A stretch of 26,705 bases of DNA, taken from a virus. Taxonomy: Duplodnaviria > Heunggongvirae > Uroviricota > Caudoviricetes. Under the pieces are notes generated by a model. The model searched no databases. It saw nothing but the letters and a program-made list of their open reading frames with translations, and was not told the DNA's origin. Where the stretch lies: the IMG/VR virus record IMGVR_UViG_2872185964_000003; one strand, 5' to 3'. The stretch's first letter is position 1. Each line of letters begins with the position of its first letter. Of the stretch, positions 9,048-26,705 are shown one piece after another. A program made the translations under genes and the position numbers.

Positions 9048-9102
9048 TGGAGCACCTCAAAAACACCATCATACACTAAATCAGTAAGTTGGCAGCATCA
9101 CC

Positions 9103-15708: not shown

Positions 15709-16202
15709 CAGCACAACTCCGCAAAGATTCGCGGGCGGCACAGAATGTCAGAGATGGCCCAGCTCACATCACGCCACAAATCCGATGTCTGTATATCCAG
15801 AGCGTCTGCCCGGCGGTCGCCCTTGTCCGTAGTGTCTGCATCACGATAACGCTCCAGAATCAGGGCGCGCGTGGCGGTATAAACAGCATTGCGCCAGTGC
15901 CAGAGATTGACGCTTTCTCCGTTAATTACGGGTGCCGGAACATCGGCCAGCGTCTGATGGCCAGCTGCCTGCTGTTCCTGCTGCCATGCTTCCAGCTCGC
16001 GGGTAACGTGTGCCACAGCCCCGGTGGCAGTATGCAGCAGGCGGGAGGTGGTCACGCGCCCCGGCAGTCGTACCGCCAGACGCAGCTCGCGCAGCACAAT
16101 ATCCGGCCAGAATGCACCCGCTGAAATGCGGGTATCGCCATCATCGGTATCGGTGATGTCGTCCTCTGCGGGTCCGGGTTCAGTTCTGGCAACCATAGTC
16201 AT
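15708..16202 (-). CDS. L: Head completion / stabilisation protein (P2 gpL-like)
   Basis: ORF after M in P2 order. Start placed at the Met preceded by AGGAG (16202); the ORF-track start at 16274 lies inside the upstream hairpin. Confidence 0.7.
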   Translation of the reverse strand: MTMVARTEPGPAEDDITDTDDGDTRISAGAFWPDIVLRELRLAVRLPGRVTTSRLLHTATGAVAHVTRELEAWQQEQQAAGHQTLADVPAPVINGESVNLWHWRNAVYTATRALILERYRDADTTDKGDRRADALDIQTSDLWRDVSWAISDILCRPRIFAELC

Positions 16203-16215
16203 GGGGTTCACTCCT

Positions 16216-16288
16216 GAAAAAAAATCGGGCGGTGGGTGCGCGGTGTAAACGGTCACGGAGTCAAACCGGAACACCGCGCACGCCGCCC
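16216..16288 (-). terminator. Strong GC-rich hairpin followed by a T8 tract between M and L
   Basis: Minus strand CGGGCGGCGTGCGCGGTGT...ACACCGCGCACCCACCGCCCG (about 18-bp stem) followed by ATTTTTTTTC, immediately before the L RBS. Confidence 0.5.
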
Positions 16289-16305
16289 GCTGACGGGGTC
16301 AGTCG

Positions 16306-17106
16306 TTAACCGCGCTTCGCCTTCTGCGTCGCGGTGGTTTTTCGTGTTGCAGGCTTCCGCGTTGTCTTTTTACTTTTGCTGCTTTCGTCCTGCGCCTGCT
16401 GTGCGCTGGCGTCTTCTGGTTCGGCTGCGGAATCGGCTTTTTTCAGGGCGCGGGAAAGGGTTGCAATCTCGCGTTTCACACCTGCGTTCGGGTTCAGGTG
16501 CATTGCTTCGCGCAGCAGCTTCAGTGACAGGGCCATGCTGTCCGCATCACTCAGGCCACGGCGGGCAAAGGCGCACGCTTTGCATAATTTGGCGCGCACT
16601 TCGTCCGGCATGTCCTGGTCGGTGACAATCTCCCGGAGGGTGTCCAGTGGTTCGATAAAGGCGGACAAATCCGCGTCGGCATCCGTCCCGGCCTGCGTCA
16701 GTACCGGATTACAGATTTCTTCGGTCAGTACCGTGGCAGCAGTACGGCCAAAGTTATCCGGCATGATGAGGTTGTGACGGACTACATACGCGCCGATACG
16801 CAGCGCAAGCGGAAGATCGCCACAGTCAATCGCCCACACCATCAGCGTGGCAATCACTTCATCCTGCTGCCCGCCGTCAGCCTCCAGCGTTCCCTCAATC
16901 CAGCCGGAAAAATCCGGCAACAACTCTTTTTTGATGGCGGCTTTCGCGCTTCTGGCCTGTACGCCCTTAAGCCGGGCCTGTGCCAGACGCAGACGATACA
17001 GCACCTCTTCATGCGCGGTACGCGCGGCGTGGTCCACGCCTTCATTCGCCCGGCCTGCGCGCTGTGCCATCACGTTCTGCCAGTGTTGTTGTGCAGGAGT
17101 AATCAT
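16306..17106 (-). CDS. M: Terminase small (endonuclease) subunit (P2 gpM-like), 266 aa
   Basis: Intact ORF between N and L with a basic, lysine-rich C-terminal tail. Confidence 0.8.
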   Translation of the reverse strand: MITPAQQHWQNVMAQRAGRANEGVDHAARTAHEEVLYRLRLAQARLKGVQARSAKAAIKKELLPDFSGWIEGTLEADGGQQDEVIATLMVWAIDCGDLPLALRIGAYVVRHNLIMPDNFGRTAATVLTEEICNPVLTQAGTDADADLSAFIEPLDTLREIVTDQDMPDEVRAKLCKACAFARRGLSDADSMALSLKLLREAMHLNPNAGVKREIATLSRALKKADSAAEPEDASAQQAQDESSKSKKTTRKPATRKTTATQKAKRG

Positions 17107-17151
17107 TTTTTCTCTCCGTTACAGGCGGGCATGATGCCCGCCGTGAGTTGA

Positions 17152-18192
17152 TTAGCTGTCGGCGAACTTCAGGCCAGTAACCATCGCGCACTTGCCATAG
17201 TCTTCAACGACATAAGCGTCATTGATGGACTGGTAGGTGGCGATGCGGTTGTATTCCGGCTCGTCTTTCATCAGGCGACGCATTGAACCTTTCTGCCAGT
17301 AAATCGACAGGTTGTTGAACGAGGTGATCAGCATCGTTGCATCCGGGAAGAACGGCGCAAGGAACACGCCCAGCCCGCCAATGGTGCGCGATGACAGGAT
17401 GAGCTGCCCGGCGAGTAATTCCGCATTGGGATTCTGGCCGCTGATGCTGTTCAGCACGGGCAGACGCAGCGAGTTAAACAGGTTGCGCCCCATAATCACC
17501 ACGAGGTCGTCAGCTTCCTTGTGCCATTCATCCAGCAGGGATGAACGCGCGTCCTGTACCAGTGCATCAGCGTTCGCATACTTACCCGCGTGCGCCACGG
17601 TGTTGTCCATGTTGCGGGAGGTCAGCGTCACGTCATTCATAACGCGTTCGCTGGCGTCGGTTCTGATGTGCTCCAGCCAGCCCACGTTAACGTCCTGAAG
17701 CAGCTTGTTGGTGCTGAAGTTGGACTCATCCGCGTGAGACGTGCCGTTGAAACCGATCATGATGCGGTCAAGCGCCACCTGTCGGGCAATCTGTGCGCTG
17801 ATGCGGGACTGAAAATCAGGGTGTGCCGACCAGGCATCAAGCTGCGGATACGAAATAAACGTGTCGTAGTTCACCTGTTCACACTGATATTTGCGGTTTT
17901 TCAGATCAACCACGTTATTCGGGTTACGGCGTTTTGTGCCGTCATAACTGGTATTCGTGCGCGCAATCGGTCCTGTGGTATCTAGGAGGATTTTTTCGCC
18001 TTTCTGGTCGGTCACGCCGATCACGTTATTTTTTTCGTAAATTCGGTACTTTCCTTTGAGGCGTTTTCAAAACGCTGCTGCACCGCGGGTTCGCGACACC
18101 AGTGCAGATACCGGGATATTATTAAGCGACGCCTGCTGCGCCATATAGCAACCCAGCTTGTTGCGGGTAATATCTGACATCACCAGATTCAT
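17152..18192 (-). pseudogene. N: Major capsid protein (P2 gpN-like) with in-frame TGA after codon 41
   Basis: ATG at 18192 with AAGGAG RBS. The frame reads MNLVMSDITRNKLGCYMAQQASLNNIPVSALVSRTRGAAAF-TGA(18069..18067)-KRLKGKYRIYEKNNVIGVTDQKGEK... in the same frame as ORF 17152..18024. Confidence 0.8.
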
Positions 18193-18215
18193 AAAAAATT
18201 TGCTCCTTTGTCTAA

Positions 18216-19085
18216 TCAGAAGTCGGCCAGCTGGTCGGAGGCTGCGCCCGTTGCGGTGAAGCGGTTCTGCGGATCGCCGTCCTGCGTGCGCAGTTTTTCC
18301 TTCAGTGCTGCCAGCTCTGTGGTCAGTGACGTAATTTTCTGGCGGTCCTGCTGATGGCGGGTTTCCAGCACATTAAAACGGTCGATAATGTCGGCCTGTG
18401 ACGTTGCGACGCCTTCCACCGCTTCCTGAATACGGGAAAAACTGGCGTCATCCGCTTTGCGGCCACGGCCAATAATCCCCATTACGCGGTTAAACCACTG
18501 GGTGCCTTCTTCCTGGCGTTGTTCTGCCATTTCGATGATTTCAGACTCGATGGCTTCGGAGATAAGCGGCGCTTCACCCTGGATACTGTTAAACGTCATC
18601 ACCGCCTGACGTTGCTGTGCCGTGAATTTCAGGCGCTCAGTGCCCAGGCTTGCCGGGGTGTCGGTCATCGCCAGCCCGACCAGATAGGCGCGCCCGTTAA
18701 CGGAGAACTGCGGGTGCAGTTCGATACTGGAATAGATTTTCTTGCCGTCCGCAACAAGCTGCTTCATGCGCTCGGTCGGTTCGATTTCTGCATACAGCGC
18801 AGTACGTCCGGCCAGCGGACCTTCCGTAATGTCTTCCGTACTCAGTGCGGTGACATCGCCCATTGCGGAAAATTCGCTTGACGGGCATGGCGAGAGATAG
18901 TGCTCAACGTTCACGCGGGCAGCGTAAACATCCGGGTTGAAGTTCTCGGCGGCTTCACGCAGATGCACCGGACTGATTTCACGGCCATCAACAGTTGATC
19001 CGGAGACAGCCACGCGAAACTTTTTGCGGGATGTCTTTTTTTCATTAGCCATAGTTTTTGCCCCTCTGACTGGTTCTTCAGTCAT
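18216..19085 (-). CDS. O: Capsid scaffolding protein (P2 gpO-like), 289 aa
   Basis: Intact ORF; ...GRAYLVGLAMTDTPASLGTERLKF... resembles gpO. First gene of the leftward capsid operon. Confidence 0.85.
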   Translation of the reverse strand: MTEEPVRGAKTMANEKKTSRKKFRVAVSGSTVDGREISPVHLREAAENFNPDVYAARVNVEHYLSPCPSSEFSAMGDVTALSTEDITEGPLAGRTALYAEIEPTERMKQLVADGKKIYSSIELHPQFSVNGRAYLVGLAMTDTPASLGTERLKFTAQQRQAVMTFNSIQGEAPLISEAIESEIIEMAEQRQEEGTQWFNRVMGIIGRGRKADDASFSRIQEAVEGVATSQADIIDRFNVLETRHQQDRQKITSLTTELAALKEKLRTQDGDPQNRFTATGAASDQLADF

Positions 19086-19205: not shown

Positions 19206-20881
19206 ATGATTCAGGACGCTTTTGTGCGCCAGCGTGCGCGGCAACTTTACTGGCAGGGTTATCCGCCCGCAGAAATATCACGTCTGATGGGAATAAACCC
19301 GAACACGATTTATGCGTGGAAAAAACGTGACCAGTGGGATGAAACGCCACCCGGGCAGCGTGTCACGCAGTCCATCGATGCGCGCCTCATCCAGCTTACT
19401 GAAAAACAGAATAAAACAGGCGGTGACTTTAAGGAAATAGACCTGCTGACCCGGCAGCTTAAAAAGCTGCATGATGGCCAGCCGGATGTGATGGCCGCAG
19501 GAAAGAAAGGCCGGGCGAAAAAACTCAAAAATCATTTCACGCCGGAACAGATTGCTGCACTGCGGGAAAAAATCATCAGCAGGCTGGAGTGGCATCAGCG
19601 GGGCTGGTTTGACTCCCTGACCCTTTGCAGGGAAGCCGGGATACGTAACAGGATGATCCTGAAATCCCGACAGATTGGGGCGACCTGGTATTTTGCACAG
19701 GAAGCACTGCTGATGGCGCTGCGTGACGATGTGGCGCAACCTTACCAGCGTAACCAGATTTTTTTGTCTGCGTCGCGTCGTCAGGCGTTCCAGTTTAAAA
19801 GCATTATTCAGAAGGCGCGGCTGAAGTTGATGTGGAGCTGAAAGGGGGCGATAAAATCATCCTCTCCAACGGCGCAGAGCTGCATTTTCTCGGCACTTCT
19901 GCTGCGTCGGCACAGTCCTATACGGGCAATTTTTATTTTGATGAATTTTTCTGGGTCAGTCGCTTTGCTGAACTGCGCAAGGTGGCTGGCGCTATGGCAA
20001 CCCTCAGCGGACTGCGGCGCACCTACTTCTCCACGCCATCCACCGAAACGCACGAGGCATACGCCTACTGGAACGGCGACCGCTGGAACGAGAAAAAGGC
20101 CTCGCATAAACGCCAGCGTTTTTCTGTGGACTGGAAAACGCTGCATAACGGGCTTATCTGCCCTGACCGGACGTGGCGGCAAATTGTCACGCTGGAAGAT
20201 GTGGTTAATCACGGCTGGAAACACACCGATATCGACGAAATTCGTGATGAAAACACCGAAGACGAGTTCCTCAATCTCTATATGTGCGAGTTTGTCCGCG
20301 AAGGGGAATCGGCATTTAACCTGAATATCCTGATTGGCTGCGGCGTTGACGGATACGACGACTGGAAAGACTGGAAACCTTTTGCTCCCCGCCCGATGGG
20401 GAATCGTCCGGTATGGATTGGGTATGACGCAAACGGCAGCAGTGGCAACGGCGACAGCGGCGCTGTGTCCGTGGTGGTTCCTCCGTCTGTTCCTGGTGGC
20501 CGTTTTCGAACGGTGGAGACGCGACGCGTTCAGGGGCTGGAGTTTGAAGAACAGGCCAGAGTCATTGAAGAGTTCACGTGTCGCTACAACGTGGAACACA
20601 TCGGCATTGATGTGACGGGCGGGAACGGGGAGGCTGTTTATCAGATAGTGAAACGGTTTTTCCCTGCCGCTATTCCGTACACCTTCACGCTGTCATCAAA
20701 ACGGTCGCTGGTACTGAAAATGCTGCAAATAATGCGTGCCGGGCGGTGGGAATACGATCGCGCCGAACGCGAGCTGGTCGCGGCCTTTAACGCCGTGCGT
20801 AAGGTGAAAACACCGGGCGGCTTTATCACTTACGAAACGGACCGAGCGAGGGGATCAGCCACGGCGACCTTGCGTGGGTAA
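19206..20881 (+). CDS. P: Terminase large (ATPase) subunit (P2 gpP-like), apparent -1 frameshift near 19825
   Basis: ORFs 19206..19841 and 19832..20881 together span a gpP-like protein. The break is at GCGCGG, where one extra G would restore ...QKARAEVDVELKGGDKIILSNGAE.... Confidence 0.8.
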
Positions 20882-23456: not shown

Positions 23457-25531
<2,075 letters not shown>

Positions 25532-25535
<4 letters not shown>

Positions 25536-25857
25536 TTTTTCCAGAGGCGGTCGAACTCCGCCTTCGCAAAATAAGCGGAAGCCTGGCGAAGGATATCGTT
25601 ACTGCGGCGCAGTTCACGATTTTCACGTTCCAGCTCTTTCAGACGCTGACGTTCAGCGGTGGTGAGCCCGCCATCACCGCCTCCGGTATCCCGCTCATGC
25701 TGGCGTACCCAGACACGCAGAGTCTCCGGTGTACAGCCAATCTTTGGGGCAATGGAACAAATTGCCGCCCACTGTGAGTCATATTCGCCCTGACTTTCCA
25801 GAACCATACGAATCGCCCTCTGACGGACTTCGGGGAAAAACGAGTATTTTTAGTCAT
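25532..25857 (-). CDS. IS629 orfA, apparent frameshift near codon 9
   Basis: MTKNTRFSP at 25857 is in one frame and ...[24 protein letters not shown]... in another; the break is at TTTTCCCCG (C4). Confidence 0.7.
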
Positions 25858-25911
25858 CCTGTTTACCTCTTTCTCAGGGAGTTTAGTCTCCAGGATTCCC
25901 GGGGCGGTTCA

Positions 25912-26705
25912 GTGCTTATTGACTTGTGGTGGAAATACCACGGCCAGCTAATGAAGTCAGGGCATAACACGCGCCTTAAATTGCTGCGCTTGAGTGAAGC
26001 AATGGATGACCCGTGCGTGCATAAACTTAATACAACGATGCTCACCGAGCTACGTGTGTCCAGGATAGAGCAGGGGATACAGCCCAGCACCATAAATCGA
26101 GAGATTGGGGCGTTAAGCGCGATGTTTACCGCACTCATCTCATCCGGCCATTTTCTTAACGATAACCCCGTTCAAGGCCTTAAAGGAATGAAGGTTAAGG
26201 AGCGCGAAATGGGATATCTGAGTAAGTCTGAATGTGTTCAGTTGCTGGATGCACTGGCTGAAAATCCCGATGAACGACTGGCTGTCGAAATCCTTCTGTC
26301 GACCGGGCGCGATGGGGCGAGGTAGCGGCACTGGAGCAGCGCCGTGTTCTTCATTGTCGAATCACTTTTTCAAAAACGAAGAACAGCAAAAACCGTACCG
26401 TTCCTATTTCTGAAAGCCTGTTTGAAAAGATCAAAAAACGGGGCGGGAAACTGGTGTTTCCGACGCTGGATTATTCATTGGTTCGCGATGTCATCAAAAC
26501 GGTCGCACCTGATGTTCCTGACGGCCAGGCTGTTCATGCGCTGCACCACACCTTCGCCAGTCATTTCATGATGAACGGCGGCAATATTCTGACGCTCCAG
26601 AAAATTCTGGGGCACGCAAAGATTCAGACAACGATGATTTATGCCCATCTTGCGCCGGATTACCTGCAGGATGCGGTGAGGTTTAATCCACTAGGAGGTG
26701 CTTAA
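25912..26705 (+). pseudogene. int: P2-type tyrosine integrase, 5'-truncated by IS629, one apparent frameshift near 26307
   Basis: Begins at the IS629 boundary (...LIDLWWKYHGQ...) and ends ...HALHHTFASHFMMNGGNILTLQKILGHAKIQTTMIYAHLAPDYLQDAVRFNPLGGA with the conserved R, H-x-x-R and Tyr. About 60 N-terminal residues are missing. Confidence 0.85.

What the first reader, a model, noticed from the sequence alone, without database searches (positions are those of the whole stretch)
17152..18192. In-frame TGA early in the major capsid gene N
The N-terminal 41 codons (from the ATG with a good RBS at 18192) and the 290-aa ORF are in the same frame, separated only by TGA at 18069..18067. This looks like a nonsense mutation rather than a frameshift; an intact capsid protein would need read-through.
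Basis: seen in the sequence. Interest (0 to 1): 0.4.

Follow-up and report, generated by a model that had tools for sequence, protein, structure and literature searches.

The report
Two-deletion capsid pseudogene in Shigella prophage
The in-frame TGA is real, but it comes from two inherited deletions (1 bp, then 11 bp) that put 21 codons of a P2-like capsid gene out of frame, making it an ordinary dead gene in a decaying Shigella prophage.

Summary
ATG 18192, 41 codons, TGA at 18069..18067 and the 290-aa ORF (18024..17152) are all in one frame on the minus strand.

The interpretation does not hold. In intact relatives (96-99.6% nt identity) the TGA bases are unchanged and are read as CGT-TTT-GAA-AAC (R-F-E-N). 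The window instead lacks 11 bp (junction 18093..18090) and 1 bp (at 18028/18027). The total loss of 12 bp restores the frame downstream. The 21 codons in between are out of frame, and one of them is the TGA. Read-through would not give an intact capsid protein.

Both deletions are real. The window is identical to NCBI CP026872.1, which one paper lists among Shigella genomes. Of 16 related loci (13 assemblies besides the window's own record), all carry the 1-bp deletion, including CP000036.1. Eleven also carry the 11-bp deletion, including Illumina-type drafts and Logan assemblies. So the frameshift came first and the 11-bp deletion followed in a sub-lineage.

The prophage has other lesions: a terminase frameshift, IS1, IS2 and IS3-family insertions, and loss of the tape-measure region. 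Many other single-base deletions in this window are private homopolymer contractions, probably consensus errors.

This is ordinary prophage decay and of low interest.

The parts
17152..18192 (-). Whole pseudogene of the P2-family major capsid protein (gpN homologue). The intact gene in relatives is 1053 nt (350 aa); here it is 1041 nt.
18203..18208 (-). Shine-Dalgarno AAGGAG, 10 nt upstream of ATG 18192. It is conserved in intact relatives.
18067..18192 (-). 41-codon N-terminal remnant ORF plus TGA. Codons 1-34 are native; codons 35-41 (TRGAAAF) are out of frame.
   Evidence: The exact 41-aa product is indexed in 46 blocks of public assemblies.
18090..18093 (-). Junction of the 11-bp deletion. 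Intact relatives read CGC-GATTTACCGTG-GAACCC. The position is ambiguous over a 2-nt GA microhomology. The deletion removes codons F-T-V, which align with the gpO cleavage site of P2 gpN.
   Evidence: Present in 11 of 16 related loci.
18028..18090 (-). 63-nt stretch (codons 35-55) read in the wrong frame. It replaces 25 native codons (FTVEPAVQQRFENASKESTEFTKKI).
18067..18069 (-). The TGA. Its nucleotides are unchanged relative to intact genes, where they are read as TT|TGA|A within CGT TTT GAA AAC.
18027..18035 (-). A7 run (18035..18029) followed by the site of the 1-bp deletion. Intact relatives have ...AATTAAC and the window has ...AATAAC. The native frame resumes at AAC 18027..18025.
   Evidence: Present in 16 of 16 related loci, including CP000036.1.
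17152..18024 (-). 290-aa C-terminal ORF from GTG with no Shine-Dalgarno. It shows no visible difference from residues 61-350 of the intact ETEC4088 capsid protein in alignment A3.
   Evidence: The exact product is indexed in 1219 blocks.

Best explanation
The capsid gene of a P2-like (Peduoviridae, P88/Gemsvirus-type) prophage in a Shigella chromosome was inactivated in two sequential, vertically inherited steps.

Step 1 was loss of one base just after an A7 run (window 18028/18027). This split the gene into a 60-codon ORF and a 290-codon ORF. That state is widespread, including CP000036.1.

Step 2 occurred in a sub-lineage. An 11-bp deletion with 2-nt GA microhomology, 63 nt upstream (junction 18093..18090), shifted the frame earlier. 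Ribosomes starting at ATG 18192 now leave the native frame at codon 35 and stop at a TGA that is out of frame in intact genes.

Because 11 + 1 = 12, the two remnant ORFs share a frame, which mimics a point nonsense mutation. The product is a 41-aa peptide. No functional capsid protein is made.

Shown here: the two deletions, their order, their presence in independent assemblies, and the unchanged TGA bases. Inferred: that there is no selection or function, and that frame restoration is coincidental.
For: 1. DNA alignments to three intact phage genes and to the 99.6%-identical intact ETEC4088 prophage show exactly two gaps in the gene, 11 bp and 1 bp. The sequence between them, including TTTTGAAAAC, is identical.

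2. The second reading frame of the window gives EPAVQQRFENASKESTEFTKKI, which is the native sequence.

3. The window is 100% identical to CP026872.1.

4. A per-indel survey of 16 related loci (15 after a duplicate look-up is removed; two belong to the window's own record) covers 13 other assemblies. The 1-bp deletion is in all of them. The 11-bp deletion is in 11 loci: 3 Logan read-set assemblies, 5 NCBI drafts and 3 complete genomes. It always co-occurs with a terminase 1-bp deletion at 19816.

5. An Illumina-type contig of the sub-lineage (L025) differs from the intact prophage over 12.2 kb by only three deletions, and two of them are these.

6. The prophage is defective in other ways. IS1 at 8335-9102 replaces the end of FII, the E, T and U genes and the invertase, and it truncates H. 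There are IS2 and IS3-family insertions, and the integrase is fragmented.
Against: No raw reads were examined; independent assemblies served as a proxy. Two of the only three real deletions in 12.2 kb lie within 63 nt of each other and together restore the frame. A rough post-hoc estimate puts that at p of about 0.01-0.03, which leaves a small opening for a non-random relation between them. The species of GCA_002950295.1 was established only as 'Shigella sp.' from one paper.
Confidence: 0.93

Rival explanations
1. A single-base nonsense mutation converted a sense codon to TGA, and an otherwise intact capsid gene could be rescued by stop-codon read-through.
For: The two ORFs share a frame and are separated by a single TGA.
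Against: The TGA bases and their neighbours are identical in all intact homologues and are read in another frame there. The window's gene is 12 nt shorter, with two clear gaps. Twenty-one codons around the TGA are non-native.
Confidence: 0.01
2. The interruption is a sequencing or assembly artefact of this record, and the real gene is intact.
For: Against a 99.6%-identical intact prophage the window has 19 single-base deletions and no insertions, all in runs of two or more identical bases and most in G/C runs of 4-6. At least six are private to CP026872.1, and three more are seen only in sister long-read-style complete genomes. So this record does appear to contain consensus errors.
Against: The two capsid deletions are not in that class. 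The same 41-aa and 290-aa products are encoded in many independent assemblies, including Illumina-type drafts, Logan assemblies of separate runs and CP000036.1. An 11-bp loss is also not a homopolymer error.
Confidence: 0.02
3. The 11-bp deletion is a selected second-site suppressor. It restores the downstream frame, and a leaky UGA (UGA-A context) lets a small amount of a variant capsid protein be made.
For: The sum of 12 nt restores the frame. Two of the three real indels in 12.2 kb cluster within 63 nt. UGA followed by A is a comparatively weak stop in E. coli (general knowledge, not tested here).
Against: The product would lack the aligned gpO cleavage site and carry 21 wrong residues in the N-arm. 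The same sub-lineage carries a terminase frameshift. At least the window's strain has lost the tape-measure region and part of the tail fibre to IS1. Selection for capsid function is therefore implausible.
Confidence: 0.02
4. Programmed recoding (frameshift or read-through) is a native feature of this capsid gene family.
For: An A7 run lies next to the 1-bp deletion.
Against: Intact relatives, namely the phages P88, 500465-2, Shae_phiSM and P2 and more than 1000 E. coli prophages, have one uninterrupted ORF of about 350 aa annotated as major capsid protein.
Confidence: 0.005

Closest known systems
Major capsid protein gpN of phage P2 and P2-like phages (Pfam PF05125; closest by DNA: Escherichia phages 500465-2, 520873, P88, Citrobacter phage Shae_phiSM; intact prophage of E. 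coli ETEC4088)
   Same: It has 95-99.6% nt identity to the P88/Gemsvirus-type genes and the same O-N-M gene order. The 290-aa part shows no visible difference from residues 61-350 of the ETEC4088 protein in alignment A3. The Pfam hit has E=7e-102.
   Different: It is 12 nt shorter, interrupted after codon 34 and stopped at codon 42. The segment aligned with the gpO cleavage site (P2 F31|T32) is deleted.
Frameshifted capsid pseudogene in CP000036.1 (Shigella boydii Sb227; organism name from my own knowledge) and related assemblies
   Same: It carries the same 1-bp deletation-free context: same prophage, same 1-bp deletion and same 290-aa ORF.
   Different: That allele lacks the 11-bp deletion. 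Its upstream ORF is 60 codons long and its TGA overlaps the GTG of the 290-aa ORF (GTGA). The window's allele is a further-decayed derivative.
Defective, IS-riddled prophages and pseudogene accumulation in Shigella (general knowledge)
   Same: There are multiple IS1, IS2 and IS3-family insertions, an IS-adjacent deletion, a fragmented integrase and frameshifted structural genes.
   Different: Nothing distinguishes it. This is a typical example.

Membership tests
P2-family major capsid protein (PF05125, gpN) | Sequence match to the family profile above the curated cut-off | tested here: met
   The 290-aa ORF scores 341 bits against a cut-off of 27, covering profile positions 50-324 of 327. The intact ETEC4088 homologue covers positions 4-324.
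P2-family major capsid protein (PF05125, gpN) | Position between the scaffold/protease gene (gpO) and the small terminase gene (gpM), divergent from P and Q | tested here: met
   The annotated relatives and the Pfam calls on the same locus show this order.
P2-family major capsid protein (PF05125, gpN) | One uninterrupted ORF of about 350 aa with the N-terminal propeptide and gpO cleavage site | tested here: not met
   The ORF is interrupted at codon 42. The F-T-V codons aligned with the P2 F31|T32 site are deleted. It is therefore a pseudogene of the family, not a functional member.
Point nonsense mutation | The stop codon differs by substitution from a sense codon in the same register in intact relatives | tested here: not met
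   The TGA bases are invariant in 8 of 8 aligned sequences, and the register differs because of an 11-bp gap.
Programmed stop-codon read-through or programmed frameshift gene | The recoding site is conserved in functional relatives | tested here: not met
   Functional phages and intact prophages have a single continuous ORF.
Sequencing artefact | The lesion is absent from independent assemblies of the same lineage | tested here: not met
   The 11-bp deletion is in 11 of 16 loci and the 1-bp deletion in 16 of 16 (13 assemblies besides the window's own record), including Illumina-type and Logan assemblies. Reads themselves could not be tested with these tools.

The most novel reading that the evidence does not exclude
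The 11-bp deletion arose as a selected second-site event that restores the reading frame after the older 1-bp frameshift. Leaky termination at the exposed UGA-A would then yield a low level of a capsid variant with a rewritten N-arm and no gpO cleavage site, possibly used by the host or by a satellite element.
Probability: 0.02. Interest if true: 0.35.

Novelty: already known. Interest (0 to 1): 0.06.

Why it matters
It matters mainly as a caution. An in-frame stop between two same-frame ORFs can look like a nonsense mutation when it is really two indels whose lengths sum to a multiple of three. Only alignment to intact relatives shows the difference.

It also shows that, within this window, real inherited lesions sit beside probable homopolymer consensus errors. 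The real ones are the capsid -11 and -1 deletions, the terminase -1 deletion and the IS insertions. Other 'frameshifts' in this record should therefore not be read as biology without a check against independent assemblies.

Biologically it is one more decaying prophage gene in Shigella.

Tried and rejected
- An exact search for the 32-nt deletion junction found nothing in genome contigs (one genome per species) or in viral contigs. This is uninformative, because the source is a non-representative Shigella genome.
- No E. coli complete genome carries the allele. The best hits are 98.8% identical and all intact.
- Literature searches for CP026872 and sister accessions gave only one paper, which lists the assembly among Shigella genomes without naming the species.
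- Tandem Repeats Finder found nothing in 16200-18300, so the 11-bp loss is not a repeat-unit change.
- I compared the IS2 copy with a canonical IS2 to look for homopolymer errors. It showed only a 4-bp CAGC deletion and one mismatch, which does not bear on error rate.
- I first suspected that all indels, including the capsid ones, were sequencing errors. I rejected this for the capsid lesions after the per-indel survey.

Full report
**1. Observation**

On the minus strand an ATG at 18192 follows an AAGGAG (18208..18203) with a 10-nt spacer, directly after the stop of the upstream scaffold gene. The ORF list gives 18067..18192(-) at 41 aa and 17152..18024(-) at 290 aa. Translating 18192..17152 in one frame gives a single internal stop at codon 42, TGA at 18069..18067. 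The 290-aa product matches Pfam PF05125, the P2-family major capsid protein, at E=7e-102.

**2. What the stop really is**

The second reading frame of the same stretch reads ...EPAVQQRFENASKESTEFTKKIT*. That is the native capsid sequence of relatives.

A blastn search of the phage collection found intact genes at 95-97% identity in Escherichia phages 500465-2, 520873, 503458 and P88 and in Citrobacter phage Shae_phiSM. In each case 1161 window bases aligned to 1172-1173 record bases. The DNA alignment shows two gaps in the window:
- An 11-bp gap: intact CGC-GATTTACCGTG-GAACCC becomes CGC-GAACCC in the window.
- A 1-bp gap: intact AATTAAC becomes AATAAC in the window.

Everything between the gaps, including GCGTTTTGAAAAC, is identical. 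In intact genes those bases are read CGT TTT GAA AAC (R F E N). The TGA is therefore not a mutated codon. It is an out-of-frame triplet exposed by the upstream deletion.

In window coordinates:
- The 11-bp junction lies at 18093..18090, ambiguous over a GA microhomology.
- The 1-bp site lies at 18028/18027, just after an A7 run (18035..18029).
- Codons 35-55 (21 codons) are out of frame and replace 25 native codons.
- The native frame resumes at AAC 18027..18025.

**3. Real or artefact**

The closest intact relative in E. coli complete genomes is a prophage of strain ETEC4088, 99.6-99.7% identical over about 19.5 kb. Against it the window shows 19 single-base deletions, no insertions, and the 11-bp deletion. 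All of the single-base deletions fall in runs of two or more identical bases, and most are in G/C runs of 4-6. That pattern looks like consensus error, so I tested each indel against independent assemblies.

Exact-product look-ups gave the following:
- The 41-aa ORF, which requires the 11-bp deletion, is indexed in 46 blocks.
- The 290-aa ORF is indexed in 1219 blocks.
- Carriers include complete genomes, NCBI drafts and Logan assemblies of separate sequencing runs.

The window is 100% identical to CP026872.1 (GCA_002950295.1). One paper lists that assembly among Shigella genomes.

A k-mer survey of 16 loci (one a duplicate look-up, two from the window's own record, so 13 other assemblies) gave a clear split:

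| Indel | Loci carrying it |
|---|---|
| 1-bp capsid deletion | 16 of 16, including CP000036.1 |
| 11-bp capsid deletion | 11 of 16; always with a terminase 1-bp deletion at 19816 |
| 14639, 15518, 19198, 20850, 21698, 22046 | only the window's own record |
| 10879, 12904, 21121 | only sister complete genomes |

A Logan contig of the sub-lineage differs from the intact prophage over 12.2 kb by only three deletions: the terminase -1, the capsid -11 and the capsid -1. The alignment of window, two Logan contigs, CP000036.1, CP026766.1, ETEC4088 and two phages shows a clean three-state series: intact, then -1, then -1 with -11.

The two capsid lesions are therefore genuine and inherited, and the 1-bp frameshift came first. 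Many of the other 'frameshifts' in this window are probably errors of this particular assembly.

**4. Consequence for the protein**

In the -1-only allele a 60-codon ORF ends in a TGA that overlaps the GTG of the 290-aa ORF. In the window's allele, translation leaves the native frame at codon 35 and ends at codon 42.

[quoted passage not shown] The 11-bp deletion removes exactly F-T-V. Even complete read-through of the TGA would give a protein with 21 foreign residues, four fewer residues overall, and no cleavage site. It would not be an intact capsid protein.

The remaining 290 residues show no visible difference from the intact ETEC4088 protein in alignment A3. That suggests the decay is recent.

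**5. Context**

The element is a P2-like prophage remnant of the Peduoviridae; its nearest named phages belong to the genera Gemsvirus and Xuanwuvirus. It carries these further lesions:
- **IS1 at 8335-9102** replaces the 3' end of the tube gene, the E, T (tape measure) and U genes and the invertase, and it truncates the tail fibre gene to 570 aa.
- **IS2 at 401-1727**, with a 5-bp target duplication, sits between hok and ogr.
- **A further IS3-family element and a truncated transposase** lie in the early region, and the integrase is fragmented.

The prophage cannot make particles, so there is no reason to expect selection for capsid expression.

**6. Mechanism and rivals**

The best explanation, at about 0.93 confidence, is two sequential neutral deletions in a decaying prophage gene, with frame restoration by coincidence (a 1-in-3 prior).

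The rivals fare as follows:
- **Point nonsense mutation.** The invariant TGA bases refute it.
- **Artefact.** The independent assemblies refute it for these two lesions.
- **Programmed recoding.** The uninterrupted ORFs in functional phages refute it.
- **Selected second-site suppressor acting through a leaky UGA.** This is not strictly excluded. Two of the three real deletions lie within 63 nt of each other and their lengths sum to 12, which a rough post-hoc estimate puts at p of about 0.01-0.03. It is implausible given the other lesions, and I put it at about 0.02.

**7. Novelty**

There is none of substance. This is a pseudogene in a public Shigella genome, of a familiar kind. Its value is methodological. 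It shows how two indels can mimic a nonsense mutation, and it flags probable homopolymer errors elsewhere in this record.

Noticed in passing
window 14639, 15518, 19198, 20850, 21698, 22046 (private); 10879, 12904, 21121 (shared only with sister complete genomes); also 260, 2593, 4862, 6490, 6575, 7989, 8064, 8253 (not covered by other assemblies): These are single-base homopolymer contractions, mostly G/C runs of 4-6, relative to a 99.6%-identical intact prophage. All are deletions. They are absent from Illumina-type assemblies of the same sub-lineage wherever those cover the site. They are probably long-read consensus errors in CP026872.1. They artificially split the portal gene, the terminase gene (second site), X, LysB, V, I, the tube gene and a cargo gene.
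   Followed up: partly
window ~19816 (terminase large subunit, + strand gene 19206..20881): This is a real 1-bp deletion (GGCC to GGC). It is shared by all 11 loci that carry the 11-bp capsid deletion and is absent from the 5 that lack it. It splits the terminase into 211-aa and 374-aa ORFs in the Illumina-type assemblies.
   Followed up: partly
window 8335-9102: An IS1 copy of 768 bp carries intact insA and insB'. One side abuts the tube gene truncated by 49 nt. The other abuts an inverted piece of the tail-fibre invertible segment. About 4.6 kb present in ETEC4088 is missing: the E, T (tape measure) and U genes and the invertase. The tail fibre H gene is truncated to 570 aa from 716 aa.
   Followed up: partly
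window 401-1727: An IS2 copy lies between hok and ogr with a 5-bp target duplication. Relative to canonical IS2 it has a 4-bp deletion (CAGC within CAGCCAGC, at about 620) in orfA and one mismatch.
   Followed up: yes
window 23457-26705: The early region holds ParM/StbA-like and StbB-like partition genes, an Ead/Ea22-like gene, a complete IS3-family element (24645-25807), a truncated rve transposase (23995-24591) and a fragmented integrase (about 25729-26705).
   Followed up: partly
window ~16385 (3' part of the small terminase gene gpM, 16306..17106 minus strand): The copy number of a 10-bp unit, AAAGCAGCAA, varies between assemblies. The window and ETEC4088 share the in-frame count (266 aa). 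CP000036.1, CP162080, CP162048 and a draft have one extra unit, which is a frameshift. CP026766.1 has two extra units.
   Followed up: partly
window 2059-5176 (minus strand): A cargo ORF of about 3.1 kb lies between ogr and gene D. It is annotated 'MFS transporter' in ETEC4088, but the 786-aa fragment here has no Pfam hit. In the window it is broken into three ORFs by two homopolymer deletions (2593 and 4862).
   Followed up: no
L013 (CP000036.1) 2822-3004; window 18022-18035: In the -1-only allele the 60-codon ORF stops at a TGA overlapping the GTG of the 290-aa ORF (GTGA), and an A7 run lies 1 nt upstream of the deletion. Both termination-reinitiation and transcriptional slippage could in principle give some capsid product in that older allele. 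Neither was tested.
   Followed up: no
L021 (QWTG01000072.1), portal gene, at ETEC4088 locus L005 ~31063: One draft assembly has a 12-bp tandem insertion (AGCGCC x2) in the portal gene. Across the sub-lineage drafts the portal gene is called as 228-aa and 97-aa ORFs, although no indel was found relative to ETEC4088 in L025. The cause may be a substitution and was not resolved.
   Followed up: no
L005 24184-24588 (ETEC4088): The 'intact' reference prophage itself has a LysB pseudogene caused by a C-run one base shorter than in the Shigella Illumina-type assemblies.
   Followed up: no
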